From positions 1-5,245 of IMG/VR virus record IMGVR_UViG_2695420539_000011: DNA of 5,245 bases; one strand, given 5' to 3'. The DNA is from a virus (taxonomy: Duplodnaviria > Heunggongvirae > Uroviricota > Caudoviricetes). Made by a program: the position numbers and the translations under genes. The first letter of the stretch is position 1; each line of letters starts with the position of its first letter. Of this stretch, positions 1 through 5,245 are shown in pieces. Under the pieces are notes generated by a model, which was not told where the DNA came from, ran no database searches, and was given only the letters and a program-made list of their open reading frames with translations.

Positions 1-1176
1 ATGTTTGCTGCATTTCGTAAGGCGATGCACAAAGCCGGATTGCGCTGGTATGGCGTGCGGGTGGCTGAGCCGCATCATGACGGTACAGTTCACTGGCACC
101 TGTTGTGTTTTATGCGCAAAAAAGATCGCCGCACCATTACTGCTTTGTTGCGTAAGTTTGCCATTCGTGAAGACCGCGAGGAGCTGGGTAATAACACGGG
201 ACCACGCTTTAAGTCTGAGCTGATAAACCCGCGCAAAGGTACGCCAACAAGCTACATCGCGAAATACATCAGTAAGAACATTGACGGGCGTGGTCTGGCT
301 GGCGAGATCAGCAAGGAAACGGGTAAATCCCTGCGTGATAACGCTGAATACGTTAATGCCTGGGCGTCTCTGCATCGTGTTCAGCAATTCCGCTTCTTTG
401 GCATTCCGGGGCGTCAGGCTTACCGTGAACTGCGATTGCTGGCTGGTCAGGCGGCAAGGCAGCAGGGGGACAAAAAAGCAGGTGCGCCGGTACTGGATAA
501 CCCGCGCCTTGATGCAATCCTGGCTGCTGCTGATGCTGGTTGTTTTGCCACCTACATCATGAAGCAGGGCGGCGTACTGGTTCCCCGCAAATATCACCTC
601 ATCAGAACTGCTTATGAAATCAACGAAGAGCCGACCGCATATGGCGATCACGGTATTCGTATTTATGGCATCTGGTCACCCATTGCAGAGGGCAAGATCT
701 GCACTCATGCCGTGAAGTGGAAAATGGTTCGTAAGGCCGTTGACGTTCAGGAGGCGGCAGCCGACCAGGGCGCTTGCGCCCCTTGGACTCGTGGCAATAA
801 CTGTCCCCTTGCTGAAAATTTGTACCAACAAGGGAAAGACAAATCAGCTGATGGAGATACCAGAACGGATATCACCCGCATGGATGACAAGGAGTTGCAC
901 GATTACCTGCACAGTATGAGCAAAAAAGAGCGCCGGGAACTGGCAGCAAGGTTACGCCTGGTGAAACCGAAACGGCGTAAAGACTACAAACAGCGAATTA
1001 CAGACCATCAGCGACTGCAGCTCGTGTATGAACTGAAGTCCAGGGGATTTGATGGCAGCGAGAAAGAGGTCGATTTACTCCTTCGCGGCGGCAGTATTCC
1101 GTCGGGAGCAGGCCTGCGTATCTTCTATCGGAACCAGCGTTTGCAGGAAGATGATAAGTGGCGAAACCTGTATTAA
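1..1176 (+). CDS. A: Replication initiation endonuclease (P2 gpA-like rolling-circle Rep, HUH superfamily); 5' end lies outside the window, C-terminal ~391 codons present
   Basis: Open frame runs from window edge to TAA at 1174-1176. Contains HUH-type motif V-H-W-H-L-L (His codons at 91-93 and 97-99) and paired tyrosines in SYIAKYISK (Tyr codons 253-255 and 265-267), very like the phiX174 gpA / P2 gpA active-site motif Y-x-x-K-Y. Position immediately upstream of the DinI-like gene as in P2-family phages. Confidence 0.85.
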
Positions 1177-1268
1177 TTACGCGGGTTAACAATTCGTGCT
1201 CTTAATAATACCAGGCATATCAGGCTGATGAGCGTAAAAAAACGTTTTACATCAGTAAGATTATTATA

Positions 1269-1288
1269 TACTGTAAATATAAACAGTG
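1269..1288. promoter_or_regulatory. LexA (SOS) box, TACTGTAAATATAAACAGTG, within an AT-rich promoter region upstream of the small-ORF/DinI-like module
   Basis: Perfect CTGT-N8-ACAG core (CTGT 1271-1274, 8-nt AT-rich spacer, ACAG 1283-1286) with flanking TA...TG, matching the E. coli LexA operator consensus TACTG(TA)5CAGTA. Lies about 40 nt upstream of the RBS/ATG at 1319-1331. Exact -35/-10 hexamers could not be assigned unambiguously. Confidence 0.65.
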
Positions 1289-1328
1289 GTTATGTATACA
1301 GTATTGCTTTGGTGTCATAGGAGGAAAG

Positions 1329-1517
1329 ATGCAGGACTATTTTTTGGAGTCTTTGAAGCTCCAGCGCATTGATTTTTTTCTTAAGCTTGTAGCGGCTAGT
1401 GAGTGTAGTGATGAAGAGAAGGGGCTGGCTCTGCAGTGGGTTTCTGAACTGACAGATGAACTCATGGCAAAAATCAGAACCCACGAATACAACCGCTCAA
1501 TGGATGTCATCAGCTGA
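1329..1517 (+). CDS. Small hypothetical protein (62 aa); possibly the N-terminal portion of a 186 Tum-like antirepressor split from the downstream DinI-like ORF
   Basis: ATG at 1329 preceded by a strong Shine-Dalgarno AGGAGG (1319-1324). Stop TGA 1515-1517 overlaps the RBS of the next gene. Sits directly downstream of the LexA box. Function not recognisable from sequence. Confidence 0.45.
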   Translation: MQDYFLESLKLQRIDFFLKLVAASECSDEEKGLALQWVSELTDELMAKIRTHEYNRSMDVIS

Positions 1518-1527
1518 GGTGACTTTT

Positions 1528-1761
1528 ATGCGCATTGAAATAATGATCGATAAAGAGCAGAAGATTAGCCAGTCTACACTGGACGCCCTTGAATCCGAGC
1601 TTTACCGCAATCTGCGCCCCCTGTATCCCAAAACGGTAATTCGTATCCGCAAAGGTAGCTCTAACGGTGTGGAACTTACCGGATTGCAACTGGACGAAGA
1701 AAGAAAACAAGTGATGAAAATTATGCAGAAGGTGTGGGAAGACGACAGCTGGCTGCATTAA
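1528..1761 (+). CDS. DinI-family protein (77 aa; similar to E. coli DinI, to the C-terminal domain of 186 Tum and, I believe, to P2 Orf91)
   Basis: Product MRIEIMIDKEQKISQSTLDALESELYRNL...ERKQVMKIMQKVWEDDSWLH aligns by eye along its length with E. coli DinI (MRIEVTIAKTSPLPAGAIDALAGELSRRI...KQRISEILQETWESADDWF). RBS GAGGTG at 1516-1521, 6 nt before the ATG at 1528. Stop TAA 1759-1761. The track's longer 1456 start was set aside because DinI homology begins exactly at MRIE and there is an RBS in front of 1528. Confidence 0.8.
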   Translation: MRIEIMIDKEQKISQSTLDALESELYRNLRPLYPKTVIRIRKGSSNGVELTGLQLDEERKQVMKIMQKVWEDDSWLH

Positions 1762-1849
1762 GAAACGTTGCTGGCGTCTGAACCTGCTTCTGGCGTCAGC
1801 AAGGTTGAACCGCGAGCCTTGAGAGGCGTTAACCATAAGTAAAAAGACA

Positions 1850-1972
1850 GTAATCATTTGATTATCTATCAGGGCGAGACCTATGCTGCACTTTTAGTTA
1901 TAACTCATAATGTATTGAAATTATTAGAATATATGTCATTCTTAAAATGTGTATGCTTATCAAGGAGCAAGA
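1850..1972 (+). promoter_or_regulatory. AT-rich upstream region of the cargo gene, presumed to contain its promoter; RBS AAGGAG at 1962-1967
   Basis: Very AT-rich stretch with several imperfect -35/-10-like hexamers (for example TTGAAA 1915-1920, CATAAT 1906-1911, TAGAAT 1925-1930), none in a convincing pairing, so the exact promoter is not called. The RBS is clear. Confidence 0.3.
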
Positions 1973-2845
1973 ATGAAACGTGGCATTGTAGCTAATCCTA
2001 ATGAAATGAGTTTTCATAGAAATAATAGTACGGTCTATCTTGGGGCAGGTTTAACTGAGCAGGATATTAATTATTTCTGCTTTTACTGGGATGATGTGGT
2101 TATTCTAGATAGTGAAAATATTCACTCGATTGTGCCTAAAGAAAAAGAATTATTAGATAATGGGGTATTACGTAGACCTATTATGAAACATGATGGTATG
2201 CTGAATATCCAAGACTTTCCATTTTTATATACGGAATTTCAGTTGCAGACATTGGATGAATTCAGGAAGAACGAGCCTGCTACTTATTGGCACTTTCATC
2301 AAACAGGGGAAAATTTAATATATGATAAAGAACAGAAAACGGCCCTTCAGTTGAGATTGGAGTTGTTTAATGTTCTGAGAATTCCTGATAAAGATGCTCA
2401 TATAGAAGATATATTACGTTTTAAAGATGATTGTCAGGATGATCTTAATGCGTTACATGAGTACTTAGAAAAACTGTATACTGAAGTCCTTTATTCTAGA
2501 GACCCTAATCTAACGAGGGCTAAAAATTTTTCTTTATTACAAGAGGCTGTAGTTAATCTTGATAAAGCTATCGAAGGGAAATGGAGAAATCCTATCAGAA
2601 TGGGAGTCAAAGCCAATCCAGAAGTAGATGGTGGGCAGGTTATGGAATTTTTAAAACCGTTGTACCATGCTGCTATTGCTGGTTATTCAGGCGGTATTAT
2701 TCCCGGTATGGTTACAGCCTTGGCAACCGCAATTCCAAGTTTTATAAAATTCCAACCAGAATGGGTGGGCTTTAGAGATAAGGGGCCTAAAGAATTAGCT
2801 TATCTTACCAAAGCAACGCATAAGGGGTTGATTAAGAGAGCTTAA
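1973..2845 (+). CDS. Hypothetical protein, 290 aa, AT-rich cargo gene at the tin/old-equivalent position; candidate phage-defence or exclusion protein with a C-terminal hydrophobic (putative transmembrane) segment
   Basis: Long uninterrupted ORF. ATG at 1973 with RBS AAGGAG 5 nt upstream; the track's GTG at 1949 is in frame but lacks an RBS. Stop TAA 2843-2845. Marked drop in GC relative to the flanking phage genes. Hydrophobic, Gly/Ala-rich stretch around residues 227-259 (AAIAGYSGGIIPGMVTALATAIPSFI). I recognise no similarity to any protein family. Confidence 0.7.
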   Translation: MKRGIVANPNEMSFHRNNSTVYLGAGLTEQDINYFCFYWDDVVILDSENIHSIVPKEKELLDNGVLRRPIMKHDGMLNIQDFPFLYTEFQLQTLDEFRKNEPATYWHFHQTGENLIYDKEQKTALQLRLELFNVLRIPDKDAHIEDILRFKDDCQDDLNALHEYLEKLYTEVLYSRDPNLTRAKNFSLLQEAVVNLDKAIEGKWRNPIRMGVKANPEVDGGQVMEFLKPLYHAAIAGYSGGIIPGMVTALATAIPSFIKFQPEWVGFRDKGPKELAYLTKATHKGLIKRA

Positions 2846-2946
2846 GGCATTTTAATCGATTTTCGCAACTATATTCCTTCGTAACCACACAAGTGCATGA
2901 CTATGCCGCATGAATCCGCATGATCGTTTGAGGATCGTTTTAGCTG

Positions 2947-2976
2947 AGGCCCGCTAGGAATGGCGGGCCTTTGCTT
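2947..2976 (+). terminator. Putative rho-independent terminator for the cargo gene transcript
   Basis: GC-rich inverted repeat AGGCCCGC (2947-2954) / GCGGGCCT (2963-2970) with an 8-nt loop, followed by a T-rich tail TTTGCTT (to 2976). About 100 nt downstream of the cargo gene stop. Confidence 0.5.
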
Positions 2977-3017
2977 ATGTCATGCAGGCGCATGAAAACC
3001 ACTACATAAAGCGGGCA

Positions 3018-3036
3018 GGCGTGGCGGGGATACGAG
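3018..3036. other. Putative cos (cohesive end) site of the P2/186 type: GGCGTGGCGGGGATACGAG
   Basis: From memory, the first 13 nt (GGCGTGGCGGGGA) match the 19-nt cohesive end of phage 186 (GGCGTGGCGGGGAAAGCAT) and nearly match P2 (GGCGAGGCGGGGAAAGCAC). Located about 160 bp beyond the end of Q, in the expected orientation and position. The last 6 nt diverge, so exact termini are uncertain. Confidence 0.4.
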
Positions 3037-3120
3037 CGCGCGCAACGGGGTAAAATGGCCAAAATCCGGCGCAGCCTCTGGCCCGCTGGCAGCCTCATTT
3101 TGCGTAGGGGGAAAATGTCA

Positions 3121-3160
3121 GGACAAAAAGAAACGCCCCGCAGAATGCTGCTGGGGCGTT
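3121..3160 (-). terminator. Putative rho-independent terminator of the P-Q packaging operon
   Basis: Inverted repeat AACGCCCCGCAG (3132-3143) / CTGC(T)GGGGCGTT (3148-3160) with a 4-nt loop and one bulged T. On the minus strand it is followed by the T-rich run TCTTTTTGTCC (reverse complement of 3121-3131). Lies 35 nt downstream of the Q stop. Confidence 0.55.
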
Positions 3161-3195
3161 GTGAGAATTGGTCAGTTATTGATGTTGTGAGTATG

Positions 3196-4242
3196 TCAGC
3201 CTCGTTTGCTCTTAAGTCCTAAGTCATAGGTTTCAAAACGGATCACCTTTTCACCCAGCCAGTTGTTAAGCTCCAGCAGTCGCTTTTGCAGTGGCATCAG
3301 CTCATTGCGGACGAAAACACGGCTCGCCTTTTCCACATCACCGAAGCCGCCAGTGTTGTTGGGAATGATACCCATCATTTGCGGCGGTACGCGGTGTGCC
3401 GCCATCATGTCGTCCCGACTCACGTTCTTGATGTTCAGAAATTCATCCTTCGCCGCGACTTCCGACAACGGGATGATCTGAAGCCCGTCCTTTTTGCCGT
3501 TAGGCGAGTACATAAACAGGTTACGGAAGTTACCAGGACCTTTGGCACTTTTCATTGCGTTGCGGAGGTTGTTCACATCCTCCTGGTTCTGCGCGGCGTC
3601 GGTCATGTACATGATGAAGCCCGCATGGCTGCCGTTAATGTAATACTTCCGGCGGAACAGCGTGGCGGACTCGTTGAGCAGGGCGGATGGAATGGCAGAA
3701 AGGTAACCTGGCAGACCATAAATCTCCTGGTTGATATCCGGCTCCATCAGGTGGAAGACGTTACCTTTTGTGAACTGATACGGCTGTGTCGTCAGGCTGT
3801 ATTGCACAAACCAGTAGGTATCCAGGTCTAACCCGCGTCGGGTGTATTTTGCCAGCGCAGGTTCAAGGGCGATAACTTCACCGAAGCGGTTCGTGCGTTT
3901 CTCCAGGTAGGCGTTACCAAATACCAGATAGTCCTGCACAAAACGTGAAAAAGCCTGCTGGCTGAGCAGTGGGTGAGGGATATAGGTGCTGGTCAGAATG
4001 TTGCACTTTACTGCAATCGGTGAGCTGTGGTGTACGGCGGCGCGGAATGTTCGCGCCAGGCCGTCGAAACTCACAGGCGGCTCATACCAGCGGTCCATCT
4101 GTACGCATTCCACATAGTCCAGCAGTTCGCGGCGGTCAAGTACTGGAACGGGATCACCGAAGCTGAATGCTTCGGCTGAAGTCTGGCTTTTATGCTGAAT
4201 CTGGTTCGTCGACGCAGCGCGGTTCTTCTTACTCTTTCCCAT
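3196..4242 (-). CDS. Q: Portal protein (P2 gpQ-like), 348 aa
   Basis: Minus-strand ORF of portal-typical size immediately downstream of the terminase gene, with the P2-family gene order cos-Q-P. ATG at 4240-4242 (minus strand) with GGAG 8 nt upstream; the track's 4245 start is an in-frame TTG one codon earlier. Stop TGA at 3196-3198. Confidence 0.85.
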   Translation of the reverse strand: MGKSKKNRAASTNQIQHKSQTSAEAFSFGDPVPVLDRRELLDYVECVQMDRWYEPPVSFDGLARTFRAAVHHSSPIAVKCNILTSTYIPHPLLSQQAFSRFVQDYLVFGNAYLEKRTNRFGEVIALEPALAKYTRRGLDLDTYWFVQYSLTTQPYQFTKGNVFHLMEPDINQEIYGLPGYLSAIPSALLNESATLFRRKYYINGSHAGFIMYMTDAAQNQEDVNNLRNAMKSAKGPGNFRNLFMYSPNGKKDGLQIIPLSEVAAKDEFLNIKNVSRDDMMAAHRVPPQMMGIIPNNTGGFGDVEKASRVFVRNELMPLQKRLLELNNWLGEKVIRFETYDLGLKSKRG

Positions 4243-5245
4243 CAAAAAATCTCCACAATATTGCTGGTATTGGCGGACTCGCCCTGCAGCGGTTCGTTAA
4301 ACAGTGCGTGCATTGTTGCCCAGGCCAGATCGGCGTGGCTGGCTTCTTCGCTGCGGCTGGCTTCATAGGTCGGGCGGTTGCCGCTGGCGGTGGTTGCGCG
4401 ACGGATTGCCATGAATGACTGCGCAATGTCGGTGTGTCCGGCGTCAAACTCCAGACGGCGGTGGCTGATAATGTCGTAGGCCTTGAGTACCAGGGCATTT
4501 TTAACATTGGGGTTATAGACAAACTCCCGGACGGCAGGAAAGAAAGCTTTCACGTTCTCATAAACCCCGTGACCAACGCCGGTCGAGTCGATACCGATAT
4601 ACGTAACGTTGTACTGTTCGGTGAGTTTTTTGATGGCGTCAGCCTGGGCGCGGAAGTCCATCCCGCGCCACTGGTGACGCTCAAGAATGCGGAACTTACC
4701 ACCCGGCACGGCTGGCGGAGCCACCACCACGCATCCGGCACTGTCGCCGTTCTGCGTACCTTTTGCCGGGTCATAACCGATCCACACTTCGCGCCAGCCA
4801 AACGGGCGCAGCGCCAGTGCATGAAAGTCGGTCCAGACTTCCCAGCTGTCCACCATGCACGCCTGCAGCTCGCTGAGCGGGAACACGGACGCGAGATCGT
4901 CCACGAACTCACACATCAGCAGGTTCTGGTATTCGTCCGGGCTGTACTCCATGCGCAACTGGCCGAGGTCGAACAGGTTACAGCCACCGCGCACCGCATC
5001 TTCCACGGTGACTATCTGGCGGTATTGCCCGTCTGCGCACAGCAGGCCGGGTGCCAGATTGCTGTGGGACAGGTCGATGTCCACCTTGTCAGCTTTGTTG
5101 CGCCCACGGTTGAACAGCGCACCGGACCAGAACGGATAAGCACTGTGGGTCAGACTGGATGGTGTGGAAAAATAGGTCTGCCGCCATTTCTTGTGAATAG
5201 CCATACCGGAAGCCACTTTGCGTAGCTCCTGAAATTTCGGTATCC
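4242..5245 (-). CDS. P: Terminase ATPase / large subunit (P2 gpP-like); C-terminal ~334 codons, 5' end outside the window
   Basis: Minus-strand frame is open from the window edge (no stop between 5216 and 5245; the track's 5216 start is an internal GTG) to TGA at 4242-4244. The C-terminal region is consistent with a terminase nuclease domain. Position directly upstream of, and overlapping, the portal gene. Confidence 0.85.
   Translation of the reverse strand, partial: IPKFQELRKVASGMAIHKKWRQTYFSTPSSLTHSAYPFWSGALFNRGRNKADKVDIDLSHSNLAPGLLCADGQYRQIVTVEDAVRGGCNLFDLGQLRMEYSPDEYQNLLMCEFVDDLASVFPLSELQACMVDSWEVWTDFHALALRPFGWREVWIGYDPAKGTQNGDSAGCVVVAPPAVPGGKFRILERHQWRGMDFRAQADAIKKLTEQYNVTYIGIDSTGVGHGVYENVKAFFPAVREFVYNPNVKNALVLKAYDIISHRRLEFDAGHTDIAQSFMAIRRATTASGNRPTYEASRSEEASHADLAWATMHALFNEPLQGESANTSNIVEIF

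What the first reader, a model, noticed from the sequence alone, without database searches (positions are those of the whole stretch)
1973..2845. Unrecognised 290-aa cargo gene in the P2-family replication-to-cos hotspot: candidate novel single-gene anti-phage or exclusion system
The gene sits between the DinI-like gene and the cos-like site, the position occupied by tin and old in P2. That locus is established as a hotspot where P2-like prophages carry diverse antiviral systems. It has its own RBS, its own AT-rich upstream region and its own downstream terminator, so it looks like an autonomous moron. Its product resembles neither Tin, Old nor any defence family I can recognise. Hotspot position, foreign composition, a stand-alone expression unit and a putative membrane segment together make it the best candidate for an undescribed defence system in this window.
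Basis: partly seen in the sequence, partly recalled or inferred. Interest (0 to 1): 0.85.

Follow-up and report, generated by a model that had tools for sequence, protein, structure and literature searches.

The report
Untested DUF6236 cargo in P2 hotspot
A real, well-conserved 290-residue gene of unknown function (Pfam DUF6236) sits in the slot next to the packaging site of a P2-like E. coli prophage, where related prophages carry anti-phage genes; that makes it a reasonable but untested defence candidate, and it was already listed in a published catalogue.

Summary
The ORF is real: ATG 1973 to TAA 2845, 290 aa, with a strong Shine-Dalgarno sequence and 36% GC against about 52% in the flanks. 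It lies between a DinI-like gene and the cos site of a P2-like prophage. Comparison with sister prophages shows it is a discrete 1,060-bp cargo module (1832-2891). In an otherwise 97%-identical relative this slot is empty. In other relatives the two slots flanking cos hold known or candidate defence genes.

It is not "unrecognised". It is Pfam DUF6236 (75 bits), and RefSeq annotates it as such. The identical protein is "system #125, DUF6236, 23 occurrences" in Table S5B of Rousset et al. 2022, which did not test it.

The "own terminator" belongs to the shared backbone. No promoter was detected. The "membrane segment" is marginal.

Anti-phage function is plausible (about 0.5). The mechanism remains inferred.

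The parts
1832..2891 (+). Cargo module: the 1,060-bp insertion that distinguishes this prophage from sister P2-like prophages.
   Evidence: blastn against L016 (E. coli 4588) aligns window 1-1831 and 2892-3046 with only 7 bp between them in L016. L017 and L018 break at the same points but hold other genes.
1832..1972 (+). AT-rich upstream region of the cargo, probably the promoter and 5' UTR. It includes a block, TTGAAA (1915-1920) and TATGTCATTCTT (1932-1943), shared with the Cronobacter orthologue.
   Evidence: Composition. Alignment of upstream regions. No sigma-70 consensus hit, so promoter function is inferred only.
1962..1966 (+). Shine-Dalgarno sequence AGGAG, 6 nt upstream of the ATG.
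   Evidence: Read directly from the sequence.
1973..2845 (+). CDS of 290 aa, a DUF6236 family protein identical to WP_053901735.1.
   Evidence: ORF list. Pfam PF19749, 75.3 bits against a cut-off of 26.2. phrog_23128, E 2e-31. RefSeq annotation. Nonsynonymous differences pN 0.17-0.25 against saturated synonymous differences pS 0.78-0.84.
1537..1761 (+). Context: DinI-like gene (the P2 orf91 position), left border of the slot.
   Evidence: Pfam DinI, E 6e-23. It is 100% identical in prophages with other cargo.
2892..3046 (.). Context: conserved cos segment of the backbone. It contains the hairpin 2942-2975 and the cos-like 19-mer 3018-3036. It is not part of the cargo.
   Evidence: Shared at 85-91% identity with L016, L017 and L018. 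Hairpin energy -25.6 kcal/mol, z -4.3. Alignment to the annotated P2 cosR.
3047..3195 (.). Context: second cargo slot (cos to Q), empty here. It holds only the portal-operon terminator hairpin 3132-3160 on the minus strand.
   Evidence: Hairpin of -20 kcal/mol, z -5.6, followed by a U-run. In relatives this slot holds a PD-Lambda-3_B-like protein, PDC-S06, a retron or a PIN_12 gene.

Best explanation
The gene is a horizontally exchanged accessory gene (a 'moron') of temperate phages that encodes a cytoplasmic DUF6236 protein. Here it occupies the DinI-to-cos half of the P2 gpA-gpQ hotspot.

Its most likely role is a single-protein anti-phage function that benefits the lysogen, either abortive infection or exclusion of competing phages.

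Proposed working, all inferred. The variable N-terminal alpha/beta domain (residues 1-140) and the strongly conserved helical hairpin (about residues 145-201) would recognise a cue from an infecting phage. The C-terminal Gly/Ala-rich hydrophobic segment (about 229-260) would then act as the effector, for example by inserting into or perturbing the inner membrane.

Shown: gene identity, family membership, module borders, mobility between phage backbones, purifying selection, and alternation with known or candidate defence genes.

Inferred: defence activity, expression in the lysogen, and the sensor/effector division.
For: Discrete cargo in the hotspot:
- The module borders at 1832 and 2891 are sharp. 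The slot is empty in L016. Across the two slots that flank cos, L016-L018 hold PADLOC-recognised proteins (ShosT/PsyrT-like PRTase, PDC-S31, PDC-S06, PD-Lambda-3_B-like, retron II-A NDT).
- P2 itself has tin and old in this slot.

Prior from the literature:
- 3 of 8 untested P2-hotspot systems were protective in Rousset 2022.
- 6 of 8 randomly chosen unknown-function P4-hotspot loci were protective in Moura de Sousa 2026.

Cargo moves independently of the phage backbone:
- The Cronobacter orthologue is 72% identical while gpA, DinI and portal are only 39-66% identical.
- The L076 orthologue is 60% identical while the backbone is 77-93% identical.

Retention after prophage decay: in Hafnia alvei a decayed P2 remnant keeps an intact 69%-identical DUF6236 gene beside an Old/AriA-like ATPase, with only integrase, portal and ogr fragments left.

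Family-wide pattern:
- About 1,003 clusters at 50% identity match, nearly all stand-alone proteins of about 285 aa.
- 56 IMG/VR viral contigs carry homologues.
- Their neighbours are lysis-cassette genes upstream and terminase or HNH genes downstream. Phage phi80 carries its Tai defence gene in the same lysis-to-packaging region.
- Klebsiella homologues follow tail-spike genes at prophage ends.
- One distant member sits beside Imm_superinfect, NERD and HNH genes.

Selection and composition: pN is far below the saturated pS. All homologues have 34-40% GC whatever the host.

C-terminal hydrophobic segment: it is conserved in position and character across the family although its sequence varies. 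Its only sub-threshold Pfam similarities are to membrane-hairpin families (DUF3482, DUF1269, ATPase_gene1; SLATT in 7 of 119 members).
Against: - No experimental evidence exists, and no paper in the library mentions DUF6236 or PF19749.
- No PADLOC model matches any of the 119 members at a meaningful level.
- No promoter was detected. The gene is co-oriented with the early operon, so it could be expressed only during lytic growth.
- The hydrophobic segment is below standard transmembrane thresholds in this protein. In the better AF2 model it is partly a beta-strand packed on the fold (residues 257-267, pLDDT about 80).
- Not every hotspot gene is a defence gene. The most frequent P2-hotspot entry in Rousset's table is a StbA/Plasmid_stab_B pair.
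Confidence: 0.5

Rival explanations
1. It is an accessory gene that serves the phage and not the lysogen's immunity. It would be made during lytic growth by read-through of the flanking operon, and would act as a counter-defence factor, a take-over factor, or a modulator of packaging or lysis. Alternatively it could be a lysogenic-conversion gene unrelated to phages.
For: - In this window it is co-oriented with the early gpA-DinI operon and follows it without a canonical terminator. The 1764-1806 hairpin has no U-run.
- In lambdoid prophages it sits between the lysis cassette and the terminase genes.
- In Klebsiella it directly follows tail-spike genes.
- No autonomous promoter was detected.
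- Rousset's P2-hotspot table also lists systems with no evident defence function.
Against: - It is dispensable and patchy. It is present in 22 of 1,261 E. coli genomes carrying this backbone flank, and sister prophages lack it entirely.
- It is retained intact in a Hafnia prophage remnant that can no longer make virions.
- It occupies three unrelated slot types in different phage families, so it has no link to one particular phage process.
- Anti-defence systems were detected in only 28 of 1,511 P2-like elements.
Confidence: 0.3
2. It is a membrane-associated superinfection-exclusion protein of the Sie/Imm type. It would block DNA entry of incoming phages and would not kill the infected cell.
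For: - It is prophage-borne and a single gene.
- It has a conserved hydrophobic C-terminal segment.
- One distant homologue neighbours an Imm_superinfect gene.
Against: - It has no signal peptide or N-terminal transmembrane helix (Rousset Table S5B).
- Most of the protein is a soluble alpha/beta plus helical fold of about 215 residues, much larger than known Sie proteins (my own knowledge of SieA, Imm and HK97 gp15).
- The hydrophobic segment is marginal.
Confidence: 0.1
3. It is a functionless hitch-hiker, a decaying gene, or an over-called ORF in AT-rich foreign DNA.
For: It has no known function, it is rare in E. coli, and no promoter was detected.
Against: - The reading frame is intact in all 20 listed genomes at 99.5-100% identity.
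- There are about 1,000 family clusters with conserved motifs (YWD, FK..R..EL.AL, LAYL).
- pN is 0.17-0.25 against saturated pS.
- The AF2 models are confident for residues 1-215.
Confidence: 0.03

Closest known systems
Rousset et al. 2022 (Cell Host Microbe 30:740), Table S5B, P2-hotspot 'system #125, DUF6236'
   Same: The protein sequence is identical, the locus is the same, and it is a single-gene arrangement. The table gives 23 occurrences among 18,150 P2 loci, with no signal peptide, no transmembrane domain and no note.
   Different: Nothing differs; this is the same entity. The paper only catalogued it. It is absent from the list of systems they cloned (no hit in Table S2).
P2 tin and old (lysogenic-conversion exclusion genes of phage P2)
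   Same: They occupy the same interval between orf91/DinI and cos, they are non-essential cargo, and they sit adjacent to cos.
   Different: There is no sequence relationship. hhalign against Tin gives probability 0.09%. The PADLOC Old model does not match this protein, although it does match the Hafnia neighbour gene at 2e-19. tin and old are transcribed leftwards from their own mapped promoter near cos, whereas this gene is rightward and has no mapped promoter.
Rst_DUF4238 and other validated single-gene P2-hotspot systems (Rousset 2022)
   Same: It is a single protein of about 300 aa, made of a domain of unknown function, in the same hotspot.
   Different: No PADLOC match was found, including to the Rousset-derived models in that database. 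The Pfam family is different. Activity has been shown for DUF4238 (against T7) but not for DUF6236.
Tai (tail assembly inhibition) systems, e.g. phi80 orf63 (He et al. 2024, Nat Commun 15:7539)
   Same: Both are prophage accessory genes found mainly just upstream of the packaging module in lambdoid phages, and also in cos-proximal hotspots of P4 or P2 type elements (compare).
   Different: They are not homologous. hhalign probability against phi80 orf63 is 0.9%. Tai is about 204 aa and is encoded opposite to the late operon in phi80.
Sensor-plus-membrane-effector defence proteins (SLATT-type 2TM effectors; Cam1, a CARF domain joined to a transmembrane helix)
   Different: Nothing reaches significance. 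No nucleotide-signal generator is nearby. The hydrophobic segment falls below transmembrane thresholds, and the domain order differs.

Membership tests
Pfam DUF6236 (PF19749) | The HMM score exceeds the curated gathering threshold. | tested here: met
   75.3 bits against a cut-off of 26.2, E 6.4e-21, covering profile positions 75-319 of 324. All 119 collected relatives also match. RefSeq names it 'DUF6236 family protein'.
P2 gpA-gpQ hotspot cargo (Rousset 2022; Moura de Sousa 2026) | It lies between the replication gene A (with DinI) and portal gene Q, adjacent to cos, in a P2-like prophage. | tested here: met
   Gene order and Pfam hits. cos aligns with the P2 cosR.
P2 gpA-gpQ hotspot cargo (Rousset 2022; Moura de Sousa 2026) | The content is variable between conserved flanks, alternating with other systems in related prophages. 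| tested here: met
   1,261 E. coli genomes share the flanks and 22 carry this gene. Breakpoints lie at 1831/1832 and 2891/2892, and the alternates are PADLOC-recognised proteins.
P2 gpA-gpQ hotspot cargo (Rousset 2022; Moura de Sousa 2026) | It shows anti-phage activity when cloned. | not testable with these tools
   This needs plaque and growth assays. No published test was found.
Known or candidate defence families (PADLOC-DB v2.0.0) | It matches any of the 5,027 defence-protein HMMs. | tested here: not met
   The window protein has no hit at E<=10. Among 119 relatives there are only scattered chance-level hits at E>=0.005.
P2 Old (OLD-family ATPase/nuclease) and P2 Tin | It shows sequence homology to Old or Tin. 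| tested here: not met
   No match to the Old model, although that model detects the Hafnia neighbour gene at 2e-19. Tin: hhalign probability 0.09%.
Tai tail-assembly-inhibition proteins | It shows homology to TaiEcA (phi80 orf63). | tested here: not met
   hhalign probability 0.9%, E 0.061 over 40 columns.
Moron (autonomous accessory transcription unit in a prophage, sensu Juhala et al. 2000; definition from my own knowledge) | Its composition differs from the surrounding phage genes. | tested here: met
   36% GC against about 52%.
Moron (autonomous accessory transcription unit in a prophage, sensu Juhala et al. 2000; definition from my own knowledge) | It has its own promoter. | tested here: inconclusive
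   There is no consensus sigma-70 site upstream. The best candidate by eye is TTGATT(1858)-18-TATGCT(1882), matching 8 of 12 positions. A conserved block lies at 1915-1943.
Moron (autonomous accessory transcription unit in a prophage, sensu Juhala et al. 2000; definition from my own knowledge) | It has its own terminator. | tested here: not met
   The only strong hairpin downstream (2942-2975) lies in the shared backbone segment 2892-3046. Nothing is found in 2846-2891.
Integral or tail-anchored membrane effector (SLATT-like 2TM, glycine-zipper hairpins) | It has a predicted transmembrane helix or hairpin, or a significant match to a membrane-effector family. | tested here: inconclusive
   The Kyte-Doolittle maximum is 1.55 here, the family mean is 1.56, and 46 of 119 members reach 1.6, always at the same position. 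Only sub-threshold Pfam hits were found. A crude Hessa-scale sum did not separate this segment from a lambda S holin control sequence. The AF2 models have low confidence or a partial beta-strand there.

The most novel reading that the evidence does not exclude
DUF6236 defines a previously uncharacterised, widespread family of single-protein anti-phage effectors (about 1,000 clusters at 50% identity). Its fold has no close solved relative. It travels as a cassette of about 1 kb between packaging-site-proximal accessory slots of unrelated temperate phages: the P2 DinI-cos slot, the lambdoid lysis-terminase junction, and the end of tail-spike modules. It is kept by hosts even after the prophage decays.
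Probability: 0.45. Interest if true: 0.65.

Novelty: new member of a known kind. Interest (0 to 1): 0.45.

Why it matters
If DUF6236 proteins protect against phages, they would add a compact one-gene system with no recognisable enzymatic or known effector domain to the defence catalogue. Current annotation tools would then miss it in Escherichia, Klebsiella, Enterobacter, Citrobacter, Cronobacter, Hafnia, Vibrio and Acinetobacter.

Its occurrence in three different packaging-proximal slots would also help define where to look for further prophage-borne immunity.

The find is incremental. The gene was already listed in a published hotspot catalogue, and the general principle that P2 hotspots hold many untested defence genes is established.

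Tried and rejected
- PADLOC, NCBIfam and PHROGs gave no functional label. PHROGs returned only phrog_23128, function unknown.
- Full-text searches for DUF6236, PF19749, WP_053901735 and the Vibrio phage accessions found no functional study. The only hit was a Vibrio prophage survey listing an accession.
- A profile search against PDB sequences gave nothing below E 0.2.
- The afdb50 library was unavailable.
- GT-A glycosyltransferase and CARF readings were considered and dropped. The scores are at the generic-fold level, and no DxD motif or partner cyclase is present.
- Homology to Tai and to Tin was tested and rejected.
- Rfam found nothing anywhere in the window, so there is no retron-like or type III toxin-antitoxin RNA next to the gene.
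- The promoter and terminator scan gave no promoter upstream and did not call the downstream hairpin.
- The genome-contig scan with degenerate patterns returned only one locus. A3 was too diverse to seed a scan, and the third homologue search returned only 18 proteins.
- A simple additive Hessa-scale estimate could not tell this segment from a lambda S holin control sequence and was discarded as a test.
- dN/dS could not be computed for the closest DNA pairs available because synonymous sites are saturated. Only pN and pS are reported.

Full report
**1. What is in the window.**
The window is a piece of a P2-like prophage. It carries the following features:
- the C-terminal 391 residues of replication protein A (1-1176, Pfam Phage_GPA);
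- a conserved 62-aa ORF (1329-1517, phrog_698);
- a DinI-like gene (1537-1761);
- the ORF in question (1973-2845);
- on the other strand, portal protein Q (3196-4245) and the large terminase P (4242 onward).

An identical stretch lies in E. coli strain 22-245. There the full P2 gene order surrounds it: repressor, Cox-region genes, A, DinI, this gene, Q, P, O, N, M, L, lysis genes.

The cos assignment is sound. Window 3018-3036 (GGCGTGGCGGGGATACGAG) and its left flank align with the annotated right cohesive end of phage P2, matching 14 of the 19 cohesive-end bases. In P2 itself, tin and old fill the same orf91-to-cos interval.

**2. The observation.**
The ORF starts at ATG 1973, preceded by AGGAG at 1962-1966, and ends at TAA 2845, giving 290 aa. 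GC is 34-36% against 50-56% on either side.

These claims hold. Three do not hold as written.

*Terminator.* The strong hairpin downstream (2942-2975, -25.6 kcal/mol, z -4.3) lies inside a 155-bp segment (2892-3046). That segment is shared at 85-91% identity with prophages carrying other cargo or none. It therefore belongs to the cos-flanking backbone and not to the gene. The consensus scan did not call it a terminator.

*Promoter.* The same scan finds no sigma-70-type promoter in the 141-bp AT-rich leader. The only support for a regulatory element is a block, TTGAAA (1915-1920) and TATGTCATTCTT (1932-1943), that is also present upstream of the 72%-identical Cronobacter orthologue.

*Membrane segment.* The hydrophobic stretch (about residues 229-260) peaks at a Kyte-Doolittle value of 1.55, just under the usual 1.6 cut-off. 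A published table lists no transmembrane domain for this protein.

**3. Module borders and the hotspot.**
Megablast of 1300-3400 against 5,426 complete E. coli genomes finds the flanks in 1,261 genomes but the whole stretch in only 22. All 20 listed matches are 99.5-100% identical and annotated as an intact CDS.

Direct comparison fixes the borders:
- In E. coli 4588 (L016), window 1-1831 and 2892-3046 lie 7 bp apart. The cargo is therefore the 1,060 bp from 1832 to 2891.
- That prophage has an empty DinI-cos slot and carries its cargo on the other side of cos.

Two slots therefore flank cos. Sister prophages hold the following genes in them:

| Slot | Locus | Content |
|---|---|---|
| DinI-cos | L017 | ShosT/PsyrT-like PRTase pair |
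| DinI-cos | L018 | PDC-S31 (DUF2971) protein |
| cos-Q | L016 | PD-Lambda-3_B-like HEPN protein |
| cos-Q | L017 | PDC-S06 ATPase |
| cos-Q | L018 | retron II-A effector with its reverse transcriptase |

The gene thus alternates with, and can sit beside, known or candidate defence genes. In this window the cos-Q slot (3047-3195) is empty.

**4. Already known.**
The protein matches Pfam DUF6236 well above threshold (75.3 bits against 26.2), and RefSeq names it accordingly.

Table S5B of Rousset et al. 2022 (PMC9122126) lists 'system 125, DUF6236, 23 occurrences in P2 hotspot' with a representative sequence identical to this ORF. The table gives no signal peptide, no transmembrane domain and no note. 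The accession WP_053901735 also appears in their locus table. The gene is not among the systems they cloned (no hit in their Table S2).

No paper in the searchable library mentions DUF6236 or PF19749 in its text. The gene is therefore catalogued but functionally untested.

**5. The family.**
An exhaustive profile search finds 1,003 clusters (at 50% identity) with E<=1e-3 and 448 with E<=1e-10. Nearly all are stand-alone proteins of 280-300 aa. Named members come from Escherichia, Cronobacter, Hafnia, Enterobacter, Klebsiella, Citrobacter, Serratia, Providencia, Vibrio and Acinetobacter.

Conservation along the protein:
- Family-wide invariant or near-invariant residues include R3-G4, Y38-W39-D40, W106, P136/P138, F150-K151, E157, Y169, D177 and Y277.
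- Residues 131-215 and 31-40 are the most conserved.
- Residues 11-30, 71-130 and 221-250 are the most variable.

Three distant members carry a SEC-C zinc motif, at the N-terminus in P0157 and P0261 and at the C-terminus in P0248.

Synonymous sites between orthologues are saturated (pS 0.78-0.84) while pN is 0.17-0.25, so the protein is under purifying selection. Every homologue examined has 34-40% GC whatever its host.

**6. Genomic settings elsewhere.**
Close relatives (59-88% identity) sit in the same P2 slot:
- P0010 lies between DinI and Q in another P2-like phage. Its backbone proteins are 77-93% identical to this window's, yet its DUF6236 is only 60% identical.
- The Cronobacter sakazakii orthologue is 72% identical on a backbone only 39-66% identical.

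The cargo history is therefore uncoupled from that of the phage.

In Hafnia alvei a 69%-identical copy survives intact next to an Old/AriA-like ATPase. Only fragments of integrase, portal and ogr remain around it. This pattern fits a gene that the host keeps.

More distant relatives (about 30% identity) are found in other prophage types:
- in Klebsiella, directly after tail-spike genes at prophage ends;
- in E. coli and Enterobacter, between the lysis cassette and the small terminase subunit.

I surveyed 53 IMG/VR viral contigs that carry a homologue:
- The three upstream neighbours are dominated by endolysins (18 hits), holins (18) and Rz (4).
- The three downstream neighbours are dominated by terminase subunits, DUF1441 and HNH endonucleases.

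In phage phi80 the Tai defence gene (orf63) lies in the same lysis-to-packaging region.

Two very distant members were checked. One is an orphan chromosomal gene. The other lies beside Imm_superinfect, NERD and HNH genes.

Among 50,697 deposited phage genomes only two Vibrio phages encode a detectable homologue, at a genome end next to an HNH gene. No deposited phage has this cargo on a P2 backbone.

**7. Structure and mechanism.**
Two AlphaFold2 models were built:
- this protein: pLDDT 68.8, pTM 0.69;
- the Enterobacter representative P0026: pLDDT 76.7, pTM 0.78.

The models agree on three parts:
- an N-terminal mixed alpha/beta domain (residues 1-140, pLDDT 80-94);
- a long antiparallel helical hairpin (about 145-201);
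- a poorly defined C-terminal part.

In the better model, residues 257-267 of the C-terminal part form a strand with pLDDT about 80.

There is no homology to Tin or Tai (hhalign probabilities 0.09% and 0.9%), to the Old model, or to any other PADLOC model.

The C-terminal Gly/Ala-rich hydrophobic segment is conserved in position and character (family mean Kyte-Doolittle maximum 1.56, with 46 of 119 members at or above 1.6). It gives only sub-threshold similarities to membrane-hairpin families.

The sensor-plus-membrane-effector model is therefore an inference with low confidence, about 0.15-0.2. That the gene serves anti-phage defence or exclusion is more likely, about 0.5. This estimate rests on three things:
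- position, mobility and retention of the gene;
- the published hit rates for unknown hotspot genes: 3 of 8 for P2 candidates and 6 of 8 for P4 unknowns;
- the absence of any direct evidence.

**8. Verdict.**
The gene is a real, conserved cargo gene of a known uncharacterised family. It sits in a known hotspot, and it was already listed in the literature without a test.

The claims of novelty, an autonomous transcription unit and a membrane segment are overstated.

The gene is a sensible candidate for a plaque-assay screen and is of moderate interest.

Noticed in passing
window 2892-3195; L016, L017, L018: The P2 'hotspot' here is really two cargo slots separated by the conserved cos segment, DinI-cos and cos-Q. 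A single prophage can fill one, both, or only the second. In this window the cos-Q slot is empty (149 bp, holding only the portal-operon terminator).
   Followed up: partly
L020 9191-10249 (IMG/VR contig with the identical DUF6236 gene): A 353-aa PIN_12-domain protein lies downstream of the DUF6236 gene and before the portal gene in some prophages that carry this gene. It has no PADLOC hit. In Rousset's locus table a PIN_12 protein recurs with different partners (KAP NTPase, AAA_21, or alone). It looks like an independent, uncharacterised cargo.
   Followed up: partly
L008-L010 (Hafnia alvei), 7200-11450: A decayed P2-like prophage remnant keeps only integrase, portal and ogr fragments, yet it retains an intact DUF6236 gene and a 561-aa Old/AriA-like ATPase. 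This looks like a case of hotspot cargo being kept by the host.
   Followed up: partly
window 1329-1517: A 62-aa ORF (phrog_698, function unknown) lies between gpA and DinI. It is 97-100% identical in the E. coli sister prophages and 88% identical in L076, and RefSeq annotates it as a hypothetical protein.
   Followed up: no
window 1764-1806: A stable imperfect hairpin (-28 kcal/mol, z -1.9) lies just after the DinI stop codon, inside the shared backbone and without a U-run. It could be an attenuator or processing site that decides whether early transcription reads into the cargo.
   Followed up: no
window 1915-1943; L080 about 5940-5975: A short block, TTGAAA followed 11 nt later by TATGTCATTCTT, lies upstream of the gene and is shared with the 72%-identical Cronobacter orthologue, although the rest of the leader has diverged. 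It does not fit a sigma-70 -10 element at a normal spacing.
   Followed up: partly
P0157, P0261 (N-terminal); P0248 (C-terminal): Three distant DUF6236 proteins carry a SEC-C type zinc motif fused at one end or the other. These are the only domain fusions seen in the family.
   Followed up: partly
L084 2455-6436: A 22%-identical family member lies in a small island with Imm_superinfect, HTH, NERD and HNH genes.
   Followed up: no
L018 1-1430 (E. coli O68:H12 strain 97.3): A group II intron reverse transcriptase/maturase is annotated where the end of gpA is expected in this P2-like prophage. Homology to the window begins only at window position 1289.
   Followed up: no
window 4434-5225 (+): A 263-aa open frame runs antisense inside the terminase gene, in GC-rich sequence. 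It is most likely a by-product of codon composition and not a gene.
   Followed up: no
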